This document shows, piece by piece, positions 5,446 through 45,978 of a DNA stretch of 64,000 nt (position 1 is the first letter of the stretch; the number at the start of each line of letters is the position of its first letter). A model generated the notes under the pieces. The model was not told where the DNA came from, did not search any database, and saw only the letters and a list, made by a program, of their open reading frames with translations. A program made the position numbers and the translations under genes. The stretch is from a phage, in the sequence record PX969468.1; one strand, 5' to 3'.

Positions 5446-5841
5446 TCACTGAAACAATGCGGATAAATTACCTTCTGGTGGGAACTTATCTGCCAAAAAC
5501 GGTGTTAGCACAGTAGCCTTCTGAAGATCTGGGGTCCACTCGTTGTTCAGAACATCCCAGTAGTACGCAATGTTGCTGTGCGGGTGCCGCATTACGAACT
5601 TTTTCCCTTCGTAGTCATCTGAAACCTCTACAGAAGAAATAACAACAGAATCTTCAAGGGTTTCTTCATAGAAAGACCCGCCTTCAAATTTCCAACGAGA
5701 TGCAAGAGCCCCTGCCTTGAACGCTGCAGATAACGGACTGTCGGCAAGAACATACATTTCTTGCACTCTGTCGCTGCGATCTTTGCTTCTTACGTTGTAC
5801 ACAGTATCTGAGCTATACTCAACACGGTATAGGCTTACCAT
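5446..5841 (-). CDS. hypothetical protein (paralog family B)
   Basis: Shares the C-terminal motif FV..HP.S....YW.....WTP with CDS 7652..8050. Confidence 0.5.
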   Translation of the reverse strand: MVSLYRVEYSSDTVYNVRSKDRSDRVQEMYVLADSPLSAAFKAGALASRWKFEGGSFYEETLEDSVVISSVEVSDDYEGKKFVMRHPHSNIAYYWDVLNNEWTPDLQKATVLTPFLADKFPPEGNLSALFQ

Positions 5842-6200
5842 TACCGCACCTCCTCAATAACTTCCACATCTGAACCCACCACAAATGCAAAAGGACAGGT
5901 TTCATGAAAGACATCCGGATCGCCGCCAAGCTTGCTAACAATTTCTCCACCACTAATAAACACAAGCTCACCGATATTCATCAGATTGCTGAAATAGTAT
6001 CCATAATGATTAAAGAATGCAGCCGGGTCAGGTAAACTAGTAGCCTCAAGTTCTACATCGTTTGAGATTACTTTCCTATCATAACCTCTCGCCTTCTGAG
6101 ATGCAAGATCTGCAGAATCTTCAGGCGACCGGAGATGCACAGGAATTGTTTCACCAATAAATCGTACTTTCATATTCTCACCCAACAACCATAGCTTCAA
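5841..6200 (-). CDS. hypothetical protein (paralog family A-like, ends ...DVEVIEEVR)
   Basis: Track ORF; C-terminus resembles 8052..8306 and 8296..8523. Confidence 0.45.
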   Translation of the reverse strand: MKLWLLGENMKVRFIGETIPVHLRSPEDSADLASQKARGYDRKVISNDVELEATSLPDPAAFFNHYGYYFSNLMNIGELVFISGGEIVSKLGGDPDVFHETCPFAFVVGSDVEVIEEVR

Positions 6201-6441
6201 AAGGAGTCATGAACGAATAAACGGCATCATCATCTGCTTCAGGGAATGCTCCCAAAGACTTCATGTCTGAGCCCTTGACAAATACAAGGTTTTGATCAAA
6301 AGCTTCTTGGGGATCAATCCGATACATATCTCGTAGAATATCGCTTACCTCCTCATCAAGAGGTGAGTATGCTGTGCACGTTTTTCCGATCAAGCTTTGA
6401 GAATCAGGGTATCCACCTGAAGTTTTAAAATAAACAATCAT
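6178..6441 (-). CDS. hypothetical protein
   Basis: Track ORF; GAGGTGAT upstream of the ATG. Confidence 0.45.
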   Translation of the reverse strand: MIVYFKTSGGYPDSQSLIGKTCTAYSPLDEEVSDILRDMYRIDPQEAFDQNLVFVKGSDMKSLGAFPEADDDAVYSFMTPFEAMVVG

Positions 6442-6536: not shown

Positions 6537-6806
6537 TTACTCTTCTACAATCTCATACACATCAGGAGTTACAATCAACTCTTCTCCGTTACCCGGTGCA
6601 ACAAACACCACCAAGCCTTCAGGTGTGTGCTTTTTAGCCATCTCGATAACATCTTCTCGCAGGGCTGGCTCCATCAGATCAAAGCCTTCACCCAAGGCAT
6701 CACGAACTACTTTCATGTAGTCCACTGGTTGTGCTTCAACGATCATGCCTTCAACCAGTCCACAGTTTTTGTCTGCCAGCTCAGTTTTGAATAATTTAAT
6801 TTTCAT
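6537..6806 (-). CDS. hypothetical small acidic protein (paralog family A)
   Basis: MKIKLFKTE... start and ...YEIVEE end. Confidence 0.5.
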   Translation of the reverse strand: MKIKLFKTELADKNCGLVEGMIVEAQPVDYMKVVRDALGEGFDLMEPALREDVIEMAKKHTPEGLVVFVAPGNGEELIVTPDVYEIVEE

Positions 6807-6832: not shown

Positions 6833-6934
6833 TTAATAGCCGTAACCTAACATATTAACTACAACTGCGATTGCAAACATAATTTCAAAGCATGCAATCT
6901 CTACATTTGGGACTAATTTCTTAATCACTCCCAT
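6833..6934 (-). CDS. small hydrophobic peptide (33 aa)
   Basis: ATG preceded by GAGGTG at 6 nt, immediately downstream of the HPF-like gene. MGVIKKLVPNVEIACFEIMFAIAVVVNMLGYGY. Confidence 0.4.
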   Translation of the reverse strand: MGVIKKLVPNVEIACFEIMFAIAVVVNMLGYGY

Positions 6935-6943
6935 TATAGCACC

Positions 6944-7261
6944 TCATTCTCCAAAGTCAATCTTTACTTTGCCTTTCCCCTTACCTTTCTTTCCACCGCA
7001 CTTAGCCAGCTGACGTGCTGCAACATCTACCATACGGTCAGTTGCCTCGTAAGCGTCACTGCCTTTAGCTTTGGCAATAACTTCTTTTCCGGAAGTGTCA
7101 AAAATGAACGCCATGACTTCCTGGTGATCATTTTCAACTTTTACACTTACACGTGCATGATTTACAGAAGGATGTAGACGCTCCAGTTTTGACATTTTGT
7201 GGGAAATGAAAGACACCATGCCTTCAGTGATTTCTACGTTGCCAGTGATTTCAATCTGCAT
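6944..7261 (-). CDS. ribosome hibernation promoting factor / RaiA (YfiA) family protein
   Basis: 105 aa; MQIEITGNVEITEGMVSFISHKMSKLERL... and ...DAYEATDRMVDVAARQLAK align by eye with E. coli RaiA/HPF; Lys/Gly-rich tail. Confidence 0.65.
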   Translation of the reverse strand: MQIEITGNVEITEGMVSFISHKMSKLERLHPSVNHARVSVKVENDHQEVMAFIFDTSGKEVIAKAKGSDAYEATDRMVDVAARQLAKCGGKKGKGKGKVKIDFGE

Positions 7262-7343
7262 AACGTGCTCCTTTTAAAGAAGAGGGAACCAAACCCTCTT
7301 TGAAAATAATGATACTAAAGATCAAGTGTTGTGTCAACAGTTT

Positions 7344-7634
7344 TTACAGCTTGTCGTCGATAGTTTTTAAAATATCTACTGCAAGATCTGCCATTTTACG
7401 AACATACTCTGCAAACTCAACAGGATCCTTGATCAATGAGTTCACAGGGTCATACCCTAAAGCGTTTAAAATGGCTACAGCATCCACGACCTTCTCATCA
7501 TTTGCGAAGATCTCACCGTCAAACTTGTAGGTCCATTTTGAGTCAATCTTGGCATGGCAGGATTGGTCCATGCTTATTACACCATCTTTTTTAAACGATT
7601 CGGTGTTATCAGTGTCTAAAACTAAATCCATCAT
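7344..7634 (-). CDS. hypothetical protein
   Basis: Track ORF. Confidence 0.5.
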   Translation of the reverse strand: MMDLVLDTDNTESFKKDGVISMDQSCHAKIDSKWTYKFDGEIFANDEKVVDAVAILNALGYDPVNSLIKDPVEFAEYVRKMADLAVDILKTIDDKL

Positions 7635-7651
7635 GTAAGTACCCCACTATT

Positions 7652-8050
7652 TCAGCTTATCTTTTCTTCAACAACCCCATAGCTTGGGGCAGAGTCAAGA
7701 GCTTTCTGGTTTAAAAGTGGTGTAGCAGAATCTGCAAACGGTGTCCAGGTTTTTGTTCTGGCATTCCAGTAATGCTTCACTCTAGAATCAGGATGCACTA
7801 TAACAAAAACTTTTTCACTTGTCAACACATTAATTTCTTCCACACCCTTGCTGATAATTTCTCCGTCATAGCCACCAGTCTGGTATCCTTCGTACCAGGT
7901 TCTTGCATAGGCATAGCCAGCCTGCCAGCATGCAGCCTCCTCCGAGGTGGAGACTACGTAAAAGTCTTTCTCAAATTCCGGAATACGCCCCTGCTTTACG
8001 CTCCAAGCTCCGCGAATTTTCATTGTTACTTTGAAAAGCTTGTTCTTCAT
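7652..8050 (-). CDS. hypothetical protein (paralog family B)
   Basis: Paralog of 5446..5841 (HPDSRVKHYWNARTKTWTP). Confidence 0.5.
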   Translation of the reverse strand: MKNKLFKVTMKIRGAWSVKQGRIPEFEKDFYVVSTSEEAACWQAGYAYARTWYEGYQTGGYDGEIISKGVEEINVLTSEKVFVIVHPDSRVKHYWNARTKTWTPFADSATPLLNQKALDSAPSYGVVEEKIS

Positions 8051-8051
8051 A

Positions 8052-8306
8052 CTACCGCTCTACAATCTCTACATCTGTTCCTACACCGAAGGCATAGTAA
8101 TGTTCTTCCCCAAAGTAATACTTGGGGACACCCGCTTTGATCAGATCTAACCCGCGAATAAATACCACACAGTGTGATACAGTGGAATGCTTCTGACGCA
8201 CAGGATCGTTGTCAGGCAACCATTCGAAGTATACCGCAGGTACAACCTTCCCTTTAAGAAAGGATTGCCCCAAGTAGACGTTAGAATCAAGAATTTTAAC
8301 CTTCAT
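8052..8306 (-). CDS. hypothetical small protein (paralog family A)
   Basis: MKVKILDS...GLDLIKAG...GTDVEIVER. Confidence 0.5.
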   Translation of the reverse strand: MKVKILDSNVYLGQSFLKGKVVPAVYFEWLPDNDPVRQKHSTVSHCVVFIRGLDLIKAGVPKYYFGEEHYYAFGVGTDVEIVER

Positions 8307-8523
8307 GATCGTCCTCCACTATCTCTACATCCTCACCTAGGGCAAAGTTGTAGGCCCACTGGCTGTCAAAGCAGTCCTGAGATGCTCCAGCGGCAATAAG
8401 ATCTGCACCCTTTATTTTTAAAAGGTCAGGATAATCTTCGTTAGGGACAGCGGTAAACACTTTACCCACTAAAGGCTCCTGACCAATATAGAAGCTTGAA
8501 TCTAAAACTTTAACTTTCATCAA
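8296..8523 (-). CDS. hypothetical small protein (paralog family A)
   Basis: MMKVKVLDS...GADLIAAG...GEDVEIVEDD; tandem duplicate of 8052..8306. Confidence 0.5.
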   Translation of the reverse strand: MMKVKVLDSSFYIGQEPLVGKVFTAVPNEDYPDLLKIKGADLIAAGASQDCFDSQWAYNFALGEDVEIVEDDHEG

Positions 8524-45166: not shown

Positions 45167-45241
45167 GCCCTGTTAGCTTAGTGGATAAAGCAGCGGCCTT
45201 CTAAGCCGTTGACACTGGTTCGAGTCCAGTACGGGGTGCCA
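45167..45241 (+). tRNA. tRNA-Arg (anticodon TCT)
   Basis: Cloverleaf folded by eye: 7-bp acceptor stem, D-arm GCTT/AAGC, anticodon loop CTTCTAA, T-arm ACTGG-TTCGAGT-CCAGT, encoded CCA. Confidence 0.75.
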
Positions 45242-45245
45242 AATT

Positions 45246-45332
45246 GGGGAGTTATCCCGTAGAGGTAGCGGTGTAGACTGTAAATCTATTGTCATTGCGA
45301 CTCGGGTGGTTCGACTCCACCACTCCCCACCA
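45246..45332 (+). tRNA. tRNA-Tyr (anticodon GTA), type II with long variable arm
   Basis: Acceptor GGGGAGT/ACTCCCC, anticodon loop CTGTAAA, T-arm GGTGG-TTCGACT-CCACC, CCA. Confidence 0.75.
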
Positions 45333-45446
45333 AATTTATATTTTTAAATGCATAAATCATACAGATAATGACATTGATATTTATCGTCGTTTATACTAGT
45401 CACTAACTGCTCGAAAATCAGTGTCATTATCAGTGTAATTTATAAA

Positions 45447-45537
45447 GGAGGGTAGGGAGCAATGGTGCTCAAGCGGTCTTGAAAACCGTCCCGTTGAGGA
45501 TGACTCGATGATGGTTCGATTCCATTACTCTCCGCCA
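45447..45537 (+). tRNA. tRNA-Ser (anticodon TGA), type II
   Basis: Acceptor GGAGGGT/ACTCTCC, anticodon loop CTTGAAA, long variable arm, T-loop TTCGATT, CCA. Confidence 0.65.
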
Positions 45538-45635
45538 CATTGTTGACCTTGTAATTAAGCGAAAGCCGGAAGCAGAACCGGATTATCAAATGTTACAGTC
45601 GTCATCGCCGACTAGCCACATGGTCAACATATTGC

Positions 45636-45734
45636 GCTAGGTAAGCCCTTTGGCAAGGGCGAGGATTTTTAATCCTGAAAATAGACGAGGTAGTCGTTGA
45701 ATACATAGGTGGTTCGATTCCATCACCTAGCACC
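45636..45734 (+). tRNA. atypical tRNA-like gene (about 99 nt; Lys TTT-like anticodon loop; about 29-nt extra region); possible pseudogene
   Basis: Perfect 7-bp acceptor (GCTAGGT/ACCTAGC), D-arm, T-arm GGTGG-TTCGATT-CCATC, anticodon loop TTTTTAA with a 4-bp stem; insertion too long for a canonical type I tRNA; no full CCA. Confidence 0.35.
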
Positions 45735-45738
45735 TTTT

Positions 45739-45814
45739 GCTGATGTAGCACAATTGGCAGTGCAATTGATTTGTAATCAATAGGTTGCAGGTTCAAGTCC
45801 TGCCATCAGCACCA
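45739..45814 (+). tRNA. tRNA-Thr (anticodon TGT)
   Basis: Acceptor GCTGATG/CATCAGC, D-arm GCAC/GTGC, anticodon stem ATTGA/TCAAT, loop TTTGTAA, T-arm GCAGG-TTCAAGT-CCTGC, CCA. Confidence 0.8.
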
Positions 45815-45815
45815 T

Positions 45816-45890
45816 GGCCCTGTAGCTGGAAGGTTCAAGCAAGCGACTCATAATCGCCAGACGGTGGTTCAATTCCACCCAGGGCCACCA
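45816..45890 (+). tRNA. tRNA-Met or Ile2 (anticodon CAT)
   Basis: Acceptor GGCCCTG/CAGGGCC, anticodon loop CTCATAA, T-arm GGTGG-TTCAATT-CCACC, CCA; G1-C72 argues against initiator. Confidence 0.7.
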
Positions 45891-45901
45891 AATAATAAAT
45901 A

Positions 45902-45978
45902 CTCCGCGTAGCTCAGCTTGGTAGAGCGCCTGATTTGGGATCAGGAGGTCGAGTGTTCGAATCACTCCGTGGAGACCA
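45902..45978 (+). tRNA. tRNA-Pro (anticodon TGG)
   Basis: C1-G72 acceptor, D-arm GCTCAGCTTGGTAGAGC, anticodon stem CCTGA/TCAGG, loop TTTGGGA, T-arm GAGTG-TTCGAAT-CACTC, CCA. Confidence 0.8.

What the first reader, a model, noticed from the sequence alone, without database searches (positions are those of the whole stretch)
6944..7261. Phage-encoded ribosome hibernation factor (HPF/RaiA) homologue
The protein aligns by eye with E. coli RaiA/HPF at both conserved ends. A phage copy could alter host ribosome dimerisation or translation during infection.
Basis: partly seen in the sequence, partly recalled or inferred. Interest (0 to 1): 0.65.

Follow-up and report, generated by a model that had tools for sequence, protein, structure and literature searches.

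The report
Known phage copy of ribosome hibernation factor
This E. coli phage gene really does encode a relative of the bacterial proteins that park idle ribosomes, but it was annotated in 2008 and tested in 2019, so what remains open is what the phage uses it for.

Summary
Window 6944..7261 (minus strand) is a 105-aa ORF that passes the curated thresholds of Pfam Ribosomal_S30AE (50.2 bits against 23.7) and TIGR00741. It aligns along its length with E. coli HPF (40% identity; 21% to RaiA), and its model matches solved short HPFs (TM 0.8-0.9).

The window is a Vequintavirus (rV5-like E. coli myovirus) and the gene is rV5 ORF144/gp139. GenBank records call it RaiA, HPF or sigma-54 modulation factor. 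Mizuno et al. 2019 listed it and expressed it in E. coli. They found it in cell extract but not in ribosomes washed with 0.5 M NH4Cl, and saw no effect on 100S.

New here:
- Every complete Vequintavirus record carrying this region has the gene, and so does a syntenic uncultured sister lineage (64% identity).
- Purifying selection is strong (dN/dS about 0.00-0.07).
- It is not a recent capture. It is about as far from cellular short HPFs (median 31%) as the paralogue RaiA is (34%).
- It lacks two of the five strictly conserved basic ribosome contacts (K80, K89) and the C-terminal histidine.
- It carries a disordered Lys/Gly tail, 10 residues longer than E. coli HPF.

Best reading: a phage-supplied, weakly binding ribosome-parking or protecting factor. 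This is inferred, not shown. Novelty: already known. Interest: low to moderate.

The parts
6944..7261 (-). Complete CDS (105 aa plus TGA stop) of the phage S30AE/HPF-family protein. It is the orthologue of rV5 ORF144/gp139.
   Evidence: ORF listing and translation. Pfam, NCBIfam and PHROG hits. Identical at 100% aa to phages DrSchubert and Mangalyan and 97% to rV5.
6995..7261 (-). Folded core, residues 1-89: beta1 2-7, alpha1 13-29, beta2 33-42, beta3 47-55, beta4 60-67, alpha2 70-89.
   Evidence: AlphaFold2 model with core pLDDT about 90. Foldseek against PDB: V. cholerae HPF 4hei TM 0.80/0.91 at rmsd 1.1 A; also E. coli HPF 2rql and the ribosome-bound 6h4n_x. dN/dS is 0.00-0.065 over codons 1-88.
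6947..6994 (-). C-terminal tail, residues 90-105 (GKKGKGKGKVKIDFGE). It is Lys/Gly-rich, predicted disordered, and makes the protein 10 residues longer than E. coli HPF. It ends in a K-[I/W]-D-[F/Y] motif that the divergent sister lineage also has.
   Evidence: pLDDT below 50 for 90-95, 97-100 and 102-105. Alignments. Frameshift-truncated in the Murica and APCEc02 records.
7268..7273 (-). Shine-Dalgarno sequence AAGGAG, 6 nt upstream of the ATG.
   Evidence: Read directly from the sequence. Conserved as AAGGAG or AAGGAA in the Vequintavirus orthologues.
7309..7337 (-). Sigma-70-type promoter-like site, TTGACA-17 nt-TATCAT (11 of 12 matches). It corresponds to promoter P144 annotated in rV5. 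The -35 box with its upstream bases (AAACTGTTGACACA) is invariant in both phage lineages.
   Evidence: Consensus scan, rV5 annotation, upstream alignment. No transcription data are available, so function is inferred.

Best explanation
The gene encodes a real, expressed and selectively maintained short member of the S30AE (HPF/RaiA) family. It is a core gene of Vequintavirus. Host RNA polymerase probably transcribes it early, from a near-consensus sigma-70 promoter inside the block of small early genes. Most likely it works as its whole family does: the beta-alpha-beta-beta-beta-alpha core sits in the tRNA/mRNA channel of the 30S subunit of ribosomes that are not translating. It would be anchored by the retained Arg83 (m4C1402 contact), Lys87, Asp75, Lys22/Lys25/Arg28 and Glu60, with the flexible poly-lysine tail lying along the mRNA path. 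The proposed benefit runs as follows. The phage halts host gene expression, so the host can no longer induce its own hibernation factors. The phage then supplies a factor that parks and shields idle ribosomes from degradation in slow-growing or starved infected cells, preserving translation capacity for the phage. Because several peripheral contacts are lost, binding is probably weaker or more reversible than for host HPF. Shown here: family membership, fold, gene conservation, purifying selection and the pattern of retained and lost contact residues. Inferred: ribosome binding, timing of expression and the benefit to the phage.
For: Family and fold. Every top structural match with E<=2e-5 is a ribosome-bound or free HPF, RaiA or pY, so no other function of this fold appears among the matches. 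The gene is present in about 118 of 121 Vequintavirus records, and those lacking it that were listed are 3-kb fragments. It sits at the same position in a syntenic sister lineage at 64% identity. dN/dS is 0.00-0.065 at dS 0.18-0.75, against about 0.21-0.27 for the upstream neighbour. GC content is 43.1% against 42.8% for the window, so the gene is fully ameliorated. The contact residues R83, K87, K91, D75, K25/R28 and E60 are retained (with contacts taken from bioRxiv 10.1101/2025.10.07.680626 and 10.1101/382572). Promoter and SD. Host HPF, RaiA and RMF protect 16S rRNA from YbeY and RNase R (PMC7913689). The protein is produced stably in E. coli, ribosome profiles were unchanged, and no harm to the cells is mentioned in the passages read, which argues against a strong shut-off toxin.
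Against: The only experiment found no phage HPF peptides in salt-washed 70S or 100S ribosomes and no change in 100S. Two of the five 'strictly conserved' basic alpha2 residues are replaced in both phage lineages (K80 to V/T, K89 to G/S). Other contacts are also lost: Y30 to L, R33 to S/T, T53 to F/R, H55, and the C-terminal His95 that stacks on G693. Only 24 of 50 columns that are at least 90% conserved in the sampled cellular short HPFs are kept. The score is well below the HPF equivalog cut-off, 57.5 against 125 bits. There are no expression, infection or knockout data. One isolate record (YP-6) carries a stop at codon 4, so the gene may be dispensable in the laboratory.
Confidence: 0.5

Rival explanations
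1. Anti-hibernation factor that behaves like RaiA. The protein binds the HPF/RaiA site, but its 16-residue basic tail runs on into the RMF and anti-Shine-Dalgarno region, as the RaiA tail does. This would exclude RMF and host HPF and so prevent or dissolve 100S dimers. Ribosomes would stay as easily re-activated 70S monomers for phage mRNAs.
For: The tail makes the protein 10 residues longer than E. coli HPF, and it is basic and disordered. [quoted passage not shown] Mizuno et al. proposed competition with the cellular homologues. The phage clade is as far from canonical HPFs as RaiA is: median 31% against 34%. A conserved terminal K-[I/W]-D-[F/Y] motif suggests a specific docking point.
Against: The tail shares no sequence similarity with the RaiA tail, and the RaiA equivalog scores only 20.3 bits. 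Two database records have frameshift-truncated tails, which may be sequencing errors. Expression in E. coli produced no change in the small 100S fraction. Any occupant of the A/P site must still be evicted before translation can start.
Confidence: 0.2
2. Neofunctionalised fold. The protein keeps the S30AE scaffold but no longer works on the ribosome decoding site. It would bind another RNA or a host protein instead, for example a tRNA, an mRNA element or a defence component.
For: It was absent from purified ribosomes. Many substitutions are specific to the phage clade, shared by both phage lineages, and fall at positions that are at least 90% conserved in cellular HPFs, including contact residues. 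It sits on a long isolated branch: only one other cluster reaches E<1e-10 among 1.84 billion representatives. It fails the HPF and RaiA equivalog thresholds.
Against: Arg83, the single essential contact to m4C1402, is retained, together with K87, D75 and the alpha1 lysines. The net character is basic and RNA-binding (pI 8.7). All significant structural neighbours are ribosome hibernation factors. The only other weak match, T7 Gp1.2, has TM of about 0.5 and E=7e-4. The negative experiment used conditions that strip loosely bound factors.
Confidence: 0.2
3. Host translation shut-off factor. Early, abundant expression blocks free 30S and 70S ribosomes to suppress host protein synthesis.
For: A near-consensus sigma-70 promoter and a strong SD suggest early, high expression. 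Family members occlude the mRNA and the A- and P-site tRNA positions.
Against: Such a block would hit phage mRNAs equally. Overnight arabinose-induced expression in E. coli left ribosome profiles unchanged, and no growth defect is mentioned in the passages read. Family members bind only vacant ribosomes.
Confidence: 0.07
4. Decaying passenger gene with no function.
For: One record has a premature stop (YP-6) and two have tail frameshifts.
Against: dN/dS is 0.00-0.065. The gene is retained in essentially all complete genomes and in a sister lineage whose synonymous sites are saturated.
Confidence: 0.03

Closest known systems
Escherichia phage rV5 ORF144 / gp139 (YP_002003641, ABI79209), called 'HPF' in Mizuno et al. 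2019 (Nat Commun 10:752)
   Same: The same gene: 97% amino-acid identity, the same position, the same upstream sigma-70 promoter (P144), the same length and the same tail.
   Different: Three substitutions only (V33A, H35Y, T56N relative to rV5). The window phage is about 91% identical to rV5 in nucleotides across this region and closest to ECML-10 and JES2013.
E. coli HPF (YhbH; PDB 2rql, 4v8h, 6h4n)
   Same: The closest protein of known structure. Identity is 40%, collinear over residues 1-89, with the same fold (TM about 0.8, rmsd 1.2-1.6 A). It shares the MQ..ITG N-terminus, K22/K25, E43, D69-x-Y71, D75, D79, R83-Q84-L85 and K87.
   Different: The phage protein scores below the equivalog cut-off (57.5 against 125 bits). 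It lacks K80, K89, Y30, R33, T53, H55 and the terminal H95. Helix alpha2 is interrupted by Cys-Gly-Gly and followed by a disordered Lys/Gly tail. pI is 8.7 against 6.5. No RMF-dependent 100S effect was seen.
E. coli RaiA (YfiA, protein Y; PDB 1n3g, 4v8i)
   Same: Same fold and same family. Both have an extension beyond alpha2 that is longer than in HPF, and the proximal part of each extension is basic.
   Different: Only 21% identity, and the RaiA equivalog scores 20.3 against 158 bits. The tails are unrelated in sequence: the RaiA tail ends in acidic residues, the phage tail in K-I-D-F-G-E.
Other phage S30AE proteins (Cronobacter phage GAP32 AFC21633; Xanthomonas jumbo phage XaC1; PHROG 8990)
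   Same: Phage-encoded members of the same Pfam family.
   Different: These are separate PHROGs (12469 against 8990, the latter at E=9e-7) and probably independent acquisitions. They occur in jumbo phages, whereas the Vequintavirus clade accounts for about 118 of the 130 phage records with an HPF-like match.

Membership tests
Pfam PF02482 Ribosomal_S30AE / TIGR00741 HPF-YfiA family | Profile score above the curated threshold over the whole domain | tested here: met
   PF02482 50.2 bits against 23.7, model positions 1-83 of 88. TIGR00741 50 bits against 40.9.
Pfam PF02482 Ribosomal_S30AE / TIGR00741 HPF-YfiA family | [quoted passage not shown] | tested here: met
   AF2 secondary structure E2-7, H13-29, E33-42, E47-55, E60-67, H70-89. 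Foldseek TM 0.76-0.81 (query) and 0.83-0.93 (target) to solved short HPFs.
Pfam PF02482 Ribosomal_S30AE / TIGR00741 HPF-YfiA family | Conserved basic surface of helix alpha2 that contacts 16S rRNA (E. coli K80, R83, K87, K89, K91) | tested here: inconclusive
   R83, K87 and K91 are kept. K80 becomes V (T in the sister lineage) and K89 becomes G (S). Extra lysines at 92, 94, 96, 98 and 100 may compensate.
Pfam PF02482 Ribosomal_S30AE / TIGR00741 HPF-YfiA family | Binding in the A/P-site channel of the 30S subunit | not testable with these tools
   The published test on the rV5 orthologue found it absent from ribosomes washed in 0.5 M NH4Cl. It has not been tested at low salt or during infection.
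Gammaproteobacterial short HPF, equivalog NF007780 (E. coli YhbH type) | Equivalog-level profile score | tested here: not met
   57.5 bits against a cut-off of 125. Median identity to 120 cellular short HPFs is 31%, against 54% for E. coli HPF.
Gammaproteobacterial short HPF, equivalog NF007780 (E. coli YhbH type) | K-H-K-[ED]-K end of alpha2 and a C-terminal His that stacks on G693 | tested here: not met
   Replaced by K-C-G-G-K-K-G-K..., with no terminal His.
Gammaproteobacterial short HPF, equivalog NF007780 (E. coli YhbH type) | Promotes RMF-dependent conversion of 90S to 100S ribosome dimers | not testable with these tools
   Mizuno et al. saw no discernible effect on 100S, in cells harvested at the end of exponential phase.
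RaiA / YfiA, equivalog NF007654 | Equivalog-level profile score | tested here: not met
   20.3 bits against a cut-off of 158; 21% identity.
RaiA / YfiA, equivalog NF007654 | C-terminal extension that overlaps the RMF site and blocks 100S formation | tested here: inconclusive
   A 16-residue disordered extension exists, but it is unrelated in sequence. Whether it reaches the RMF site is inference only.
Long HPF (Gram-positive, Thermus or cyanobacterial type) | C-terminal dimerisation domain after a linker (protein of about 180-190 aa) | tested here: not met
   The protein is 105 aa, with a single Pfam domain and no second domain.

The most novel reading that the evidence does not exclude
The Vequintavirus protein would be a third functional class of short S30AE factor, alongside HPF and RaiA. 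Its remodelled contact surface and poly-lysine tail would give it a phage-specific activity on the ribosome. One possibility is shielding the decoding centre or the 16S 3' end of infected-cell ribosomes from ribosome-targeting defence or stress nucleases. Another is keeping ribosomes in a rapidly reversible parked state that favours phage mRNAs. Either way it would not simply copy host hibernation.
Probability: 0.12. Interest if true: 0.7.

Novelty: already known. Interest (0 to 1): 0.3.

Why it matters
Phage genes that touch the translation machinery are rare, and how phages deal with hibernating ribosomes in slow-growing gut bacteria is poorly understood. Among cultured phages this is the main HPF family: about 118 of the 130 phage records with an HPF-like match. 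It is a core gene under strong constraint in a genus widely used in phage therapy and biocontrol. So it does something useful, yet the single published experiment did not find it on ribosomes. Resolving that conflict would show whether phages promote, prevent or repurpose ribosome hibernation. As a genome-scan finding, though, it is a re-discovery of an annotated and published gene.

Tried and rejected
1. Recent capture from the host. Mizuno et al. inferred a relatively recent transfer. Rejected: the best cellular-type match among 1.84 billion representatives is 44% identical (E=8e-8). Identity to E. coli HPF is 40%. GC equals the phage average. A 64%-identical syntenic orthologue exists in a sister lineage.

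2. A structured 5' UTR element. A 7-bp hairpin (7300..7280) lies between the promoter and the SD, but its energy is ordinary (z = -0.45). It is altered in V18 and absent from the sister lineage, and no Rfam family matches. Not claimed.

3. P0006, a 1160-aa protein that scored E=3e-9 with 9 matched stretches. It is a PPC-domain repeat protein and the hit is spurious.

4. A second S30AE gene downstream. Several records annotate 'sigma 54 modulation factor' twice. The 89-aa ORF at 6537..6806 has no Pfam hit and belongs to an unrelated PHROG, so this is an annotation slip copied from APCEc02.

5. Neighbouring genes as functional partners. Nine neighbours have no Pfam match and only unknown-function PHROGs.

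6. IMG/VR scan for more orthologues. It returned only 2 loci.

7. Literature searches for expression timing, knockouts or any later functional work on Vequintavirus HPF. Nothing was found beyond Mizuno 2019 and Mathieu 2020.

8. T7 Gp1.2 as an alternative structural analogue. The match is too weak (TM about 0.5, E=7e-4) to build on.

Full report
**Observation**

Window 6944..7261 holds a minus-strand ORF: ATG at 7261, TGA at 6946-6944, 105 aa. The coordinates in the finding match the ORF exactly, stop codon included.

The protein passes curated family thresholds.
- Pfam PF02482 Ribosomal_S30AE: E=4.4e-13, 50.2 bits against a gathering score of 23.7.
- TIGR00741 (HPF/YfiA family): 50 bits against 40.9.
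- It stays below the equivalog cut-offs for E. coli-type HPF (NF007780, 57.5 against 125) and RaiA (NF007654, 20.3 against 158).

Against PDB sequences the best matches are E. coli HPF entries 2rql, 4v8h and 6h4n at E about 1e-12, collinear over residues 1-89. Identity is 40% to E. coli HPF and 21% to RaiA; my E. coli HPF sequence was checked against 2rql.

An AlphaFold2 model (mean pLDDT 82.9, core about 90) gives the beta-alpha-beta-beta-beta-alpha order, with residues 90-105 disordered. Foldseek places it on V. cholerae HPF (4hei, TM 0.80/0.91, rmsd 1.1 A), on E. coli HPF, and on HPF bound to the hibernating ribosome (6h4n_x).

**Identity of the sequence and prior knowledge**

The 3.5 kb around the gene is about 94% identical to Vequintavirus genomes, the rV5-like E. 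coli myoviruses such as ECML-10 and JES2013. The protein is 100% identical to those of phages DrSchubert and Mangalyan and 97% identical to rV5 gp139.

GenBank records name this gene 'sigma 54 modulation factor', 'hpf', 'ribosome hibernation factor' or 'RaiA'. In rV5 it is ORF144, with an annotated sigma-70 promoter P144.

Mizuno et al. 2019 (PMC6375957) listed HPF in rV5, FV3, JES-2013, typing phage 14 and FFH2. They expressed the rV5 gene from pBAD24 in E. coli NM522 and detected four peptides in crude extract. They found none in 70S or 100S ribosomes purified through 0.5 M NH4Cl, and no effect on 100S. Mathieu et al. 2020 (PMC6969025) list it as an auxiliary gene of five gut rV5 isolates.

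I found no later functional work. The finding is a re-discovery.

**Gene anatomy**

Upstream, on the minus strand, lie:
- a promoter-like site TTGACA (7337-7332), 17 nt, TATCAT (7314-7309), matching 11 of 12 positions;
- a Shine-Dalgarno sequence AAGGAG (7273-7268), 6 nt before the ATG.

The -35 box with its upstream bases (AAACTGTTGACACA) is invariant across Vequintavirus and a divergent sister lineage.

A small hairpin between promoter and SD is not statistically unusual (z = -0.45) and is not conserved, so I do not claim it. No Rfam family matches nearby.

The gene sits in the long block of small same-strand genes of unknown function that the rV5 paper describes (PMC3606486). None of the nine neighbours has a Pfam hit.

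**Distribution and selection**

About 118 of the 121 phage records that share this region carry the gene. The non-carriers listed are 3-kb fragments, and no record outside the rV5-like set matches, even in the sensitive DNA mode.

A second, uncultured lineage (contigs of about 125-137 kb) has a 103-aa orthologue at 64% identity, in the same position. Its neighbouring genes are 28-67% identical.

Nei-Gojobori dN/dS over codons 1-88 between the window and 12 Vequintavirus orthologues is 0.00-0.065, at dS 0.18-0.75. The upstream neighbour gives about 0.21-0.27. Against the sister lineage, synonymous sites are saturated while dN is 0.24. The gene is therefore functional and tightly constrained.

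Exceptions among database records:
- a one-codon Asn insertion or deletion at residue 8;
- frameshifts in the Lys/Gly tail of Murica and APCEc02;
- a stop at codon 4 in YP-6.

**How far it is from cellular HPFs**

An exhaustive phmmer search of 1.84 billion cluster representatives found only 41 hits at E<1e-3. Only the sister-lineage protein fell below 1e-10. The best cellular-type hit is 44% identical.

| Protein | Median identity to 120 gammaproteobacterial short HPFs |
|---|---|
| Phage protein | 31% |
| E. coli HPF | 54% |
| E. coli RaiA | 34% |

The two phage lineages form one long branch in a quick NJ tree. GC content equals the phage average. This argues against the 'relatively recent' transfer suggested in 2019. 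It also means the phage protein cannot be assumed to do what HPF does.

**Ribosome-contact residues**

Contacts were taken from cryo-EM work on E. coli and Enterobacter HPF (bioRxiv 10.1101/2025.10.07.680626 and 10.1101/382572).

- Retained: K25 (Ec K26), R28 (Q29), E43, E60, I62, D75, R83 (the m4C1402 contact), K87 and K91.
- Replaced: Y30 to L, R33 to S, T53 to F, H55, K80 to V, K89 to G.
- Missing: the C-terminal His95 that stacks on G693.

Helix alpha2 ends at Cys88-Gly89-Gly90 and is followed by GKKGKGKGKVKIDFGE.

Most of these departures are shared by the 64%-identical sister lineage, as is a terminal K-[I/W]-D-[F/Y] motif. They are therefore conserved features of the phage clade and not decay.

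Only 24 of the 50 columns that are at least 90% conserved in the sampled cellular HPFs are kept. That sample consists of the best profile matches, so it overstates cellular conservation.

**Mechanism**

Every significant structural neighbour is a hibernation factor that occupies the 30S A/P channel. The central anchors are kept and the protein is basic (pI 8.7).

I therefore think ribosome binding remains the most likely activity. It is probably weaker or more salt-sensitive than for host HPF, with the poly-lysine tail adding non-specific affinity along the mRNA path.

The 2019 negative result does not exclude this. It used a 0.5 M NH4Cl cushion and uninfected cells harvested at the end of exponential phase. 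High-salt washing is the standard way to strip ribosome-associated factors (PMC4889938).

[quoted passage not shown] The most economical rationale follows the logic of auxiliary metabolic genes: the phage supplies a parking and protecting factor once host gene expression is shut down.

The main rival is a RaiA-like anti-dimerisation role through the extended tail, since the RaiA tail reaches the RMF site. A second rival is loss of ribosome binding altogether. A shut-off toxin is unlikely, because induced expression left ribosome profiles unchanged and no growth defect is mentioned in the passages read. A functionless passenger is excluded by the selection data.

**Verdict**

The homology is confirmed and the function is unresolved. 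The gene is already known. The analysis adds five points:
- it is a core gene of the genus;
- it is under strong constraint;
- the capture is ancient, not recent;
- two canonical basic contacts and the terminal histidine are lost;
- the tail is conserved and specific to the phage clade.

Interest is low to moderate. It rests mainly on the clear, testable conflict between strong selection and the one negative binding experiment.

Noticed in passing
window 6537..6806 (-): Several GenBank records (APCEc02, nomo, naswa, magaca and others, shown as 'sigma 54 modulation factor (x2)') label this 89-aa downstream ORF 'sigma 54 modulation factor'. It has no S30AE or other Pfam match and belongs to the unknown-function PHROG 11868. 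In APCEc02 the true HPF gene is called 'hypothetical', so the label appears to have slipped by one gene and then been copied. Other records label the HPF gene itself 'ATP-dependent protease La type I'.
   Followed up: yes
L010 (phage YP-6) 401-412; L011 (Murica) and L012 (APCEc02) tail codons: In YP-6 the HPF reading frame has a stop at codon 4, and the record annotates a 91-aa product starting at Met15. Murica and APCEc02 have frameshifts in the GGGGAAAGG run of the Lys/Gly tail, giving 99-aa and 101-aa products. These could be real variants or homopolymer sequencing errors.
   Followed up: partly
window 7238..7240 region (codon 8); L009, L011, L016: There is a one-codon Asn insertion or deletion among Vequintaviruses: TGNVEIT against TGNNVEIT. 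The longer form restores the spacing seen in E. coli HPF (TGNNVEIT).
   Followed up: partly
window 6933..6960 (-) and 6833..6934 (-): A second strong promoter-like site, TTGACT-16-TATAAT with a TG extended -10 (11 of 12), overlaps the last codons of the HPF gene. Its -10 box overlaps the ATG of a conserved 33-aa hydrophobic ORF (PHROG 15151), so a transcript starting there would skip that ORF's start.
   Followed up: no
window 5446..5841, 7652..8050, 8052..8306, 8296..8523, 6178..6441 (all -): The HPF gene is embedded among duplicated small genes. There are two PHROG 7379 paralogues (131 and 132 aa). There are two or three PHROG 5009 paralogues, which share an MKVK.LDS N-terminus and a D-V-E-I-V-E C-terminus. 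All are of unknown function.
   Followed up: partly
window 45167..45978 (+): A cluster of 7 tRNA genes (Arg-TCT, Tyr, Ser, Thr, Met, Pro). It includes a 97-99-nt tRNA-like gene at 45636..45734 for which ARAGORN calls a four-base anticodon (atcc). That gene passes the Rfam tRNA threshold only modestly (35.5 bits).
   Followed up: partly
phage collection hits H6-H10, H20-H21; L015: Eighteen records named 'Campylobacter phage' (marked UNVERIFIED, host C. jejuni) are 90-94% identical to E. coli Vequintaviruses across this region and are classified as Vequintavirus. The host labels look doubtful.
   Followed up: no
window 7262..7634 against 6944..7261, compared with L013 (FV3): There is a mosaic boundary at the HPF promoter. 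The upstream gene is nearly identical to FV3 (dS 0.055), while the HPF gene differs from FV3 at dS 0.63. This suggests recombination between Vequintavirus lineages at or near the intergenic region.
   Followed up: partly
L003-L006 (Logan and ENA contigs of about 15-126 kb): An uncultured lineage related to Vequintavirus has the same gene order around HPF, but its proteins are only 28-67% identical in this block (up to about 89% a little further upstream). It has no match in the 50,697-record phage collection, and one copy is filed under an E. coli assembly at NCBI.
   Followed up: partly
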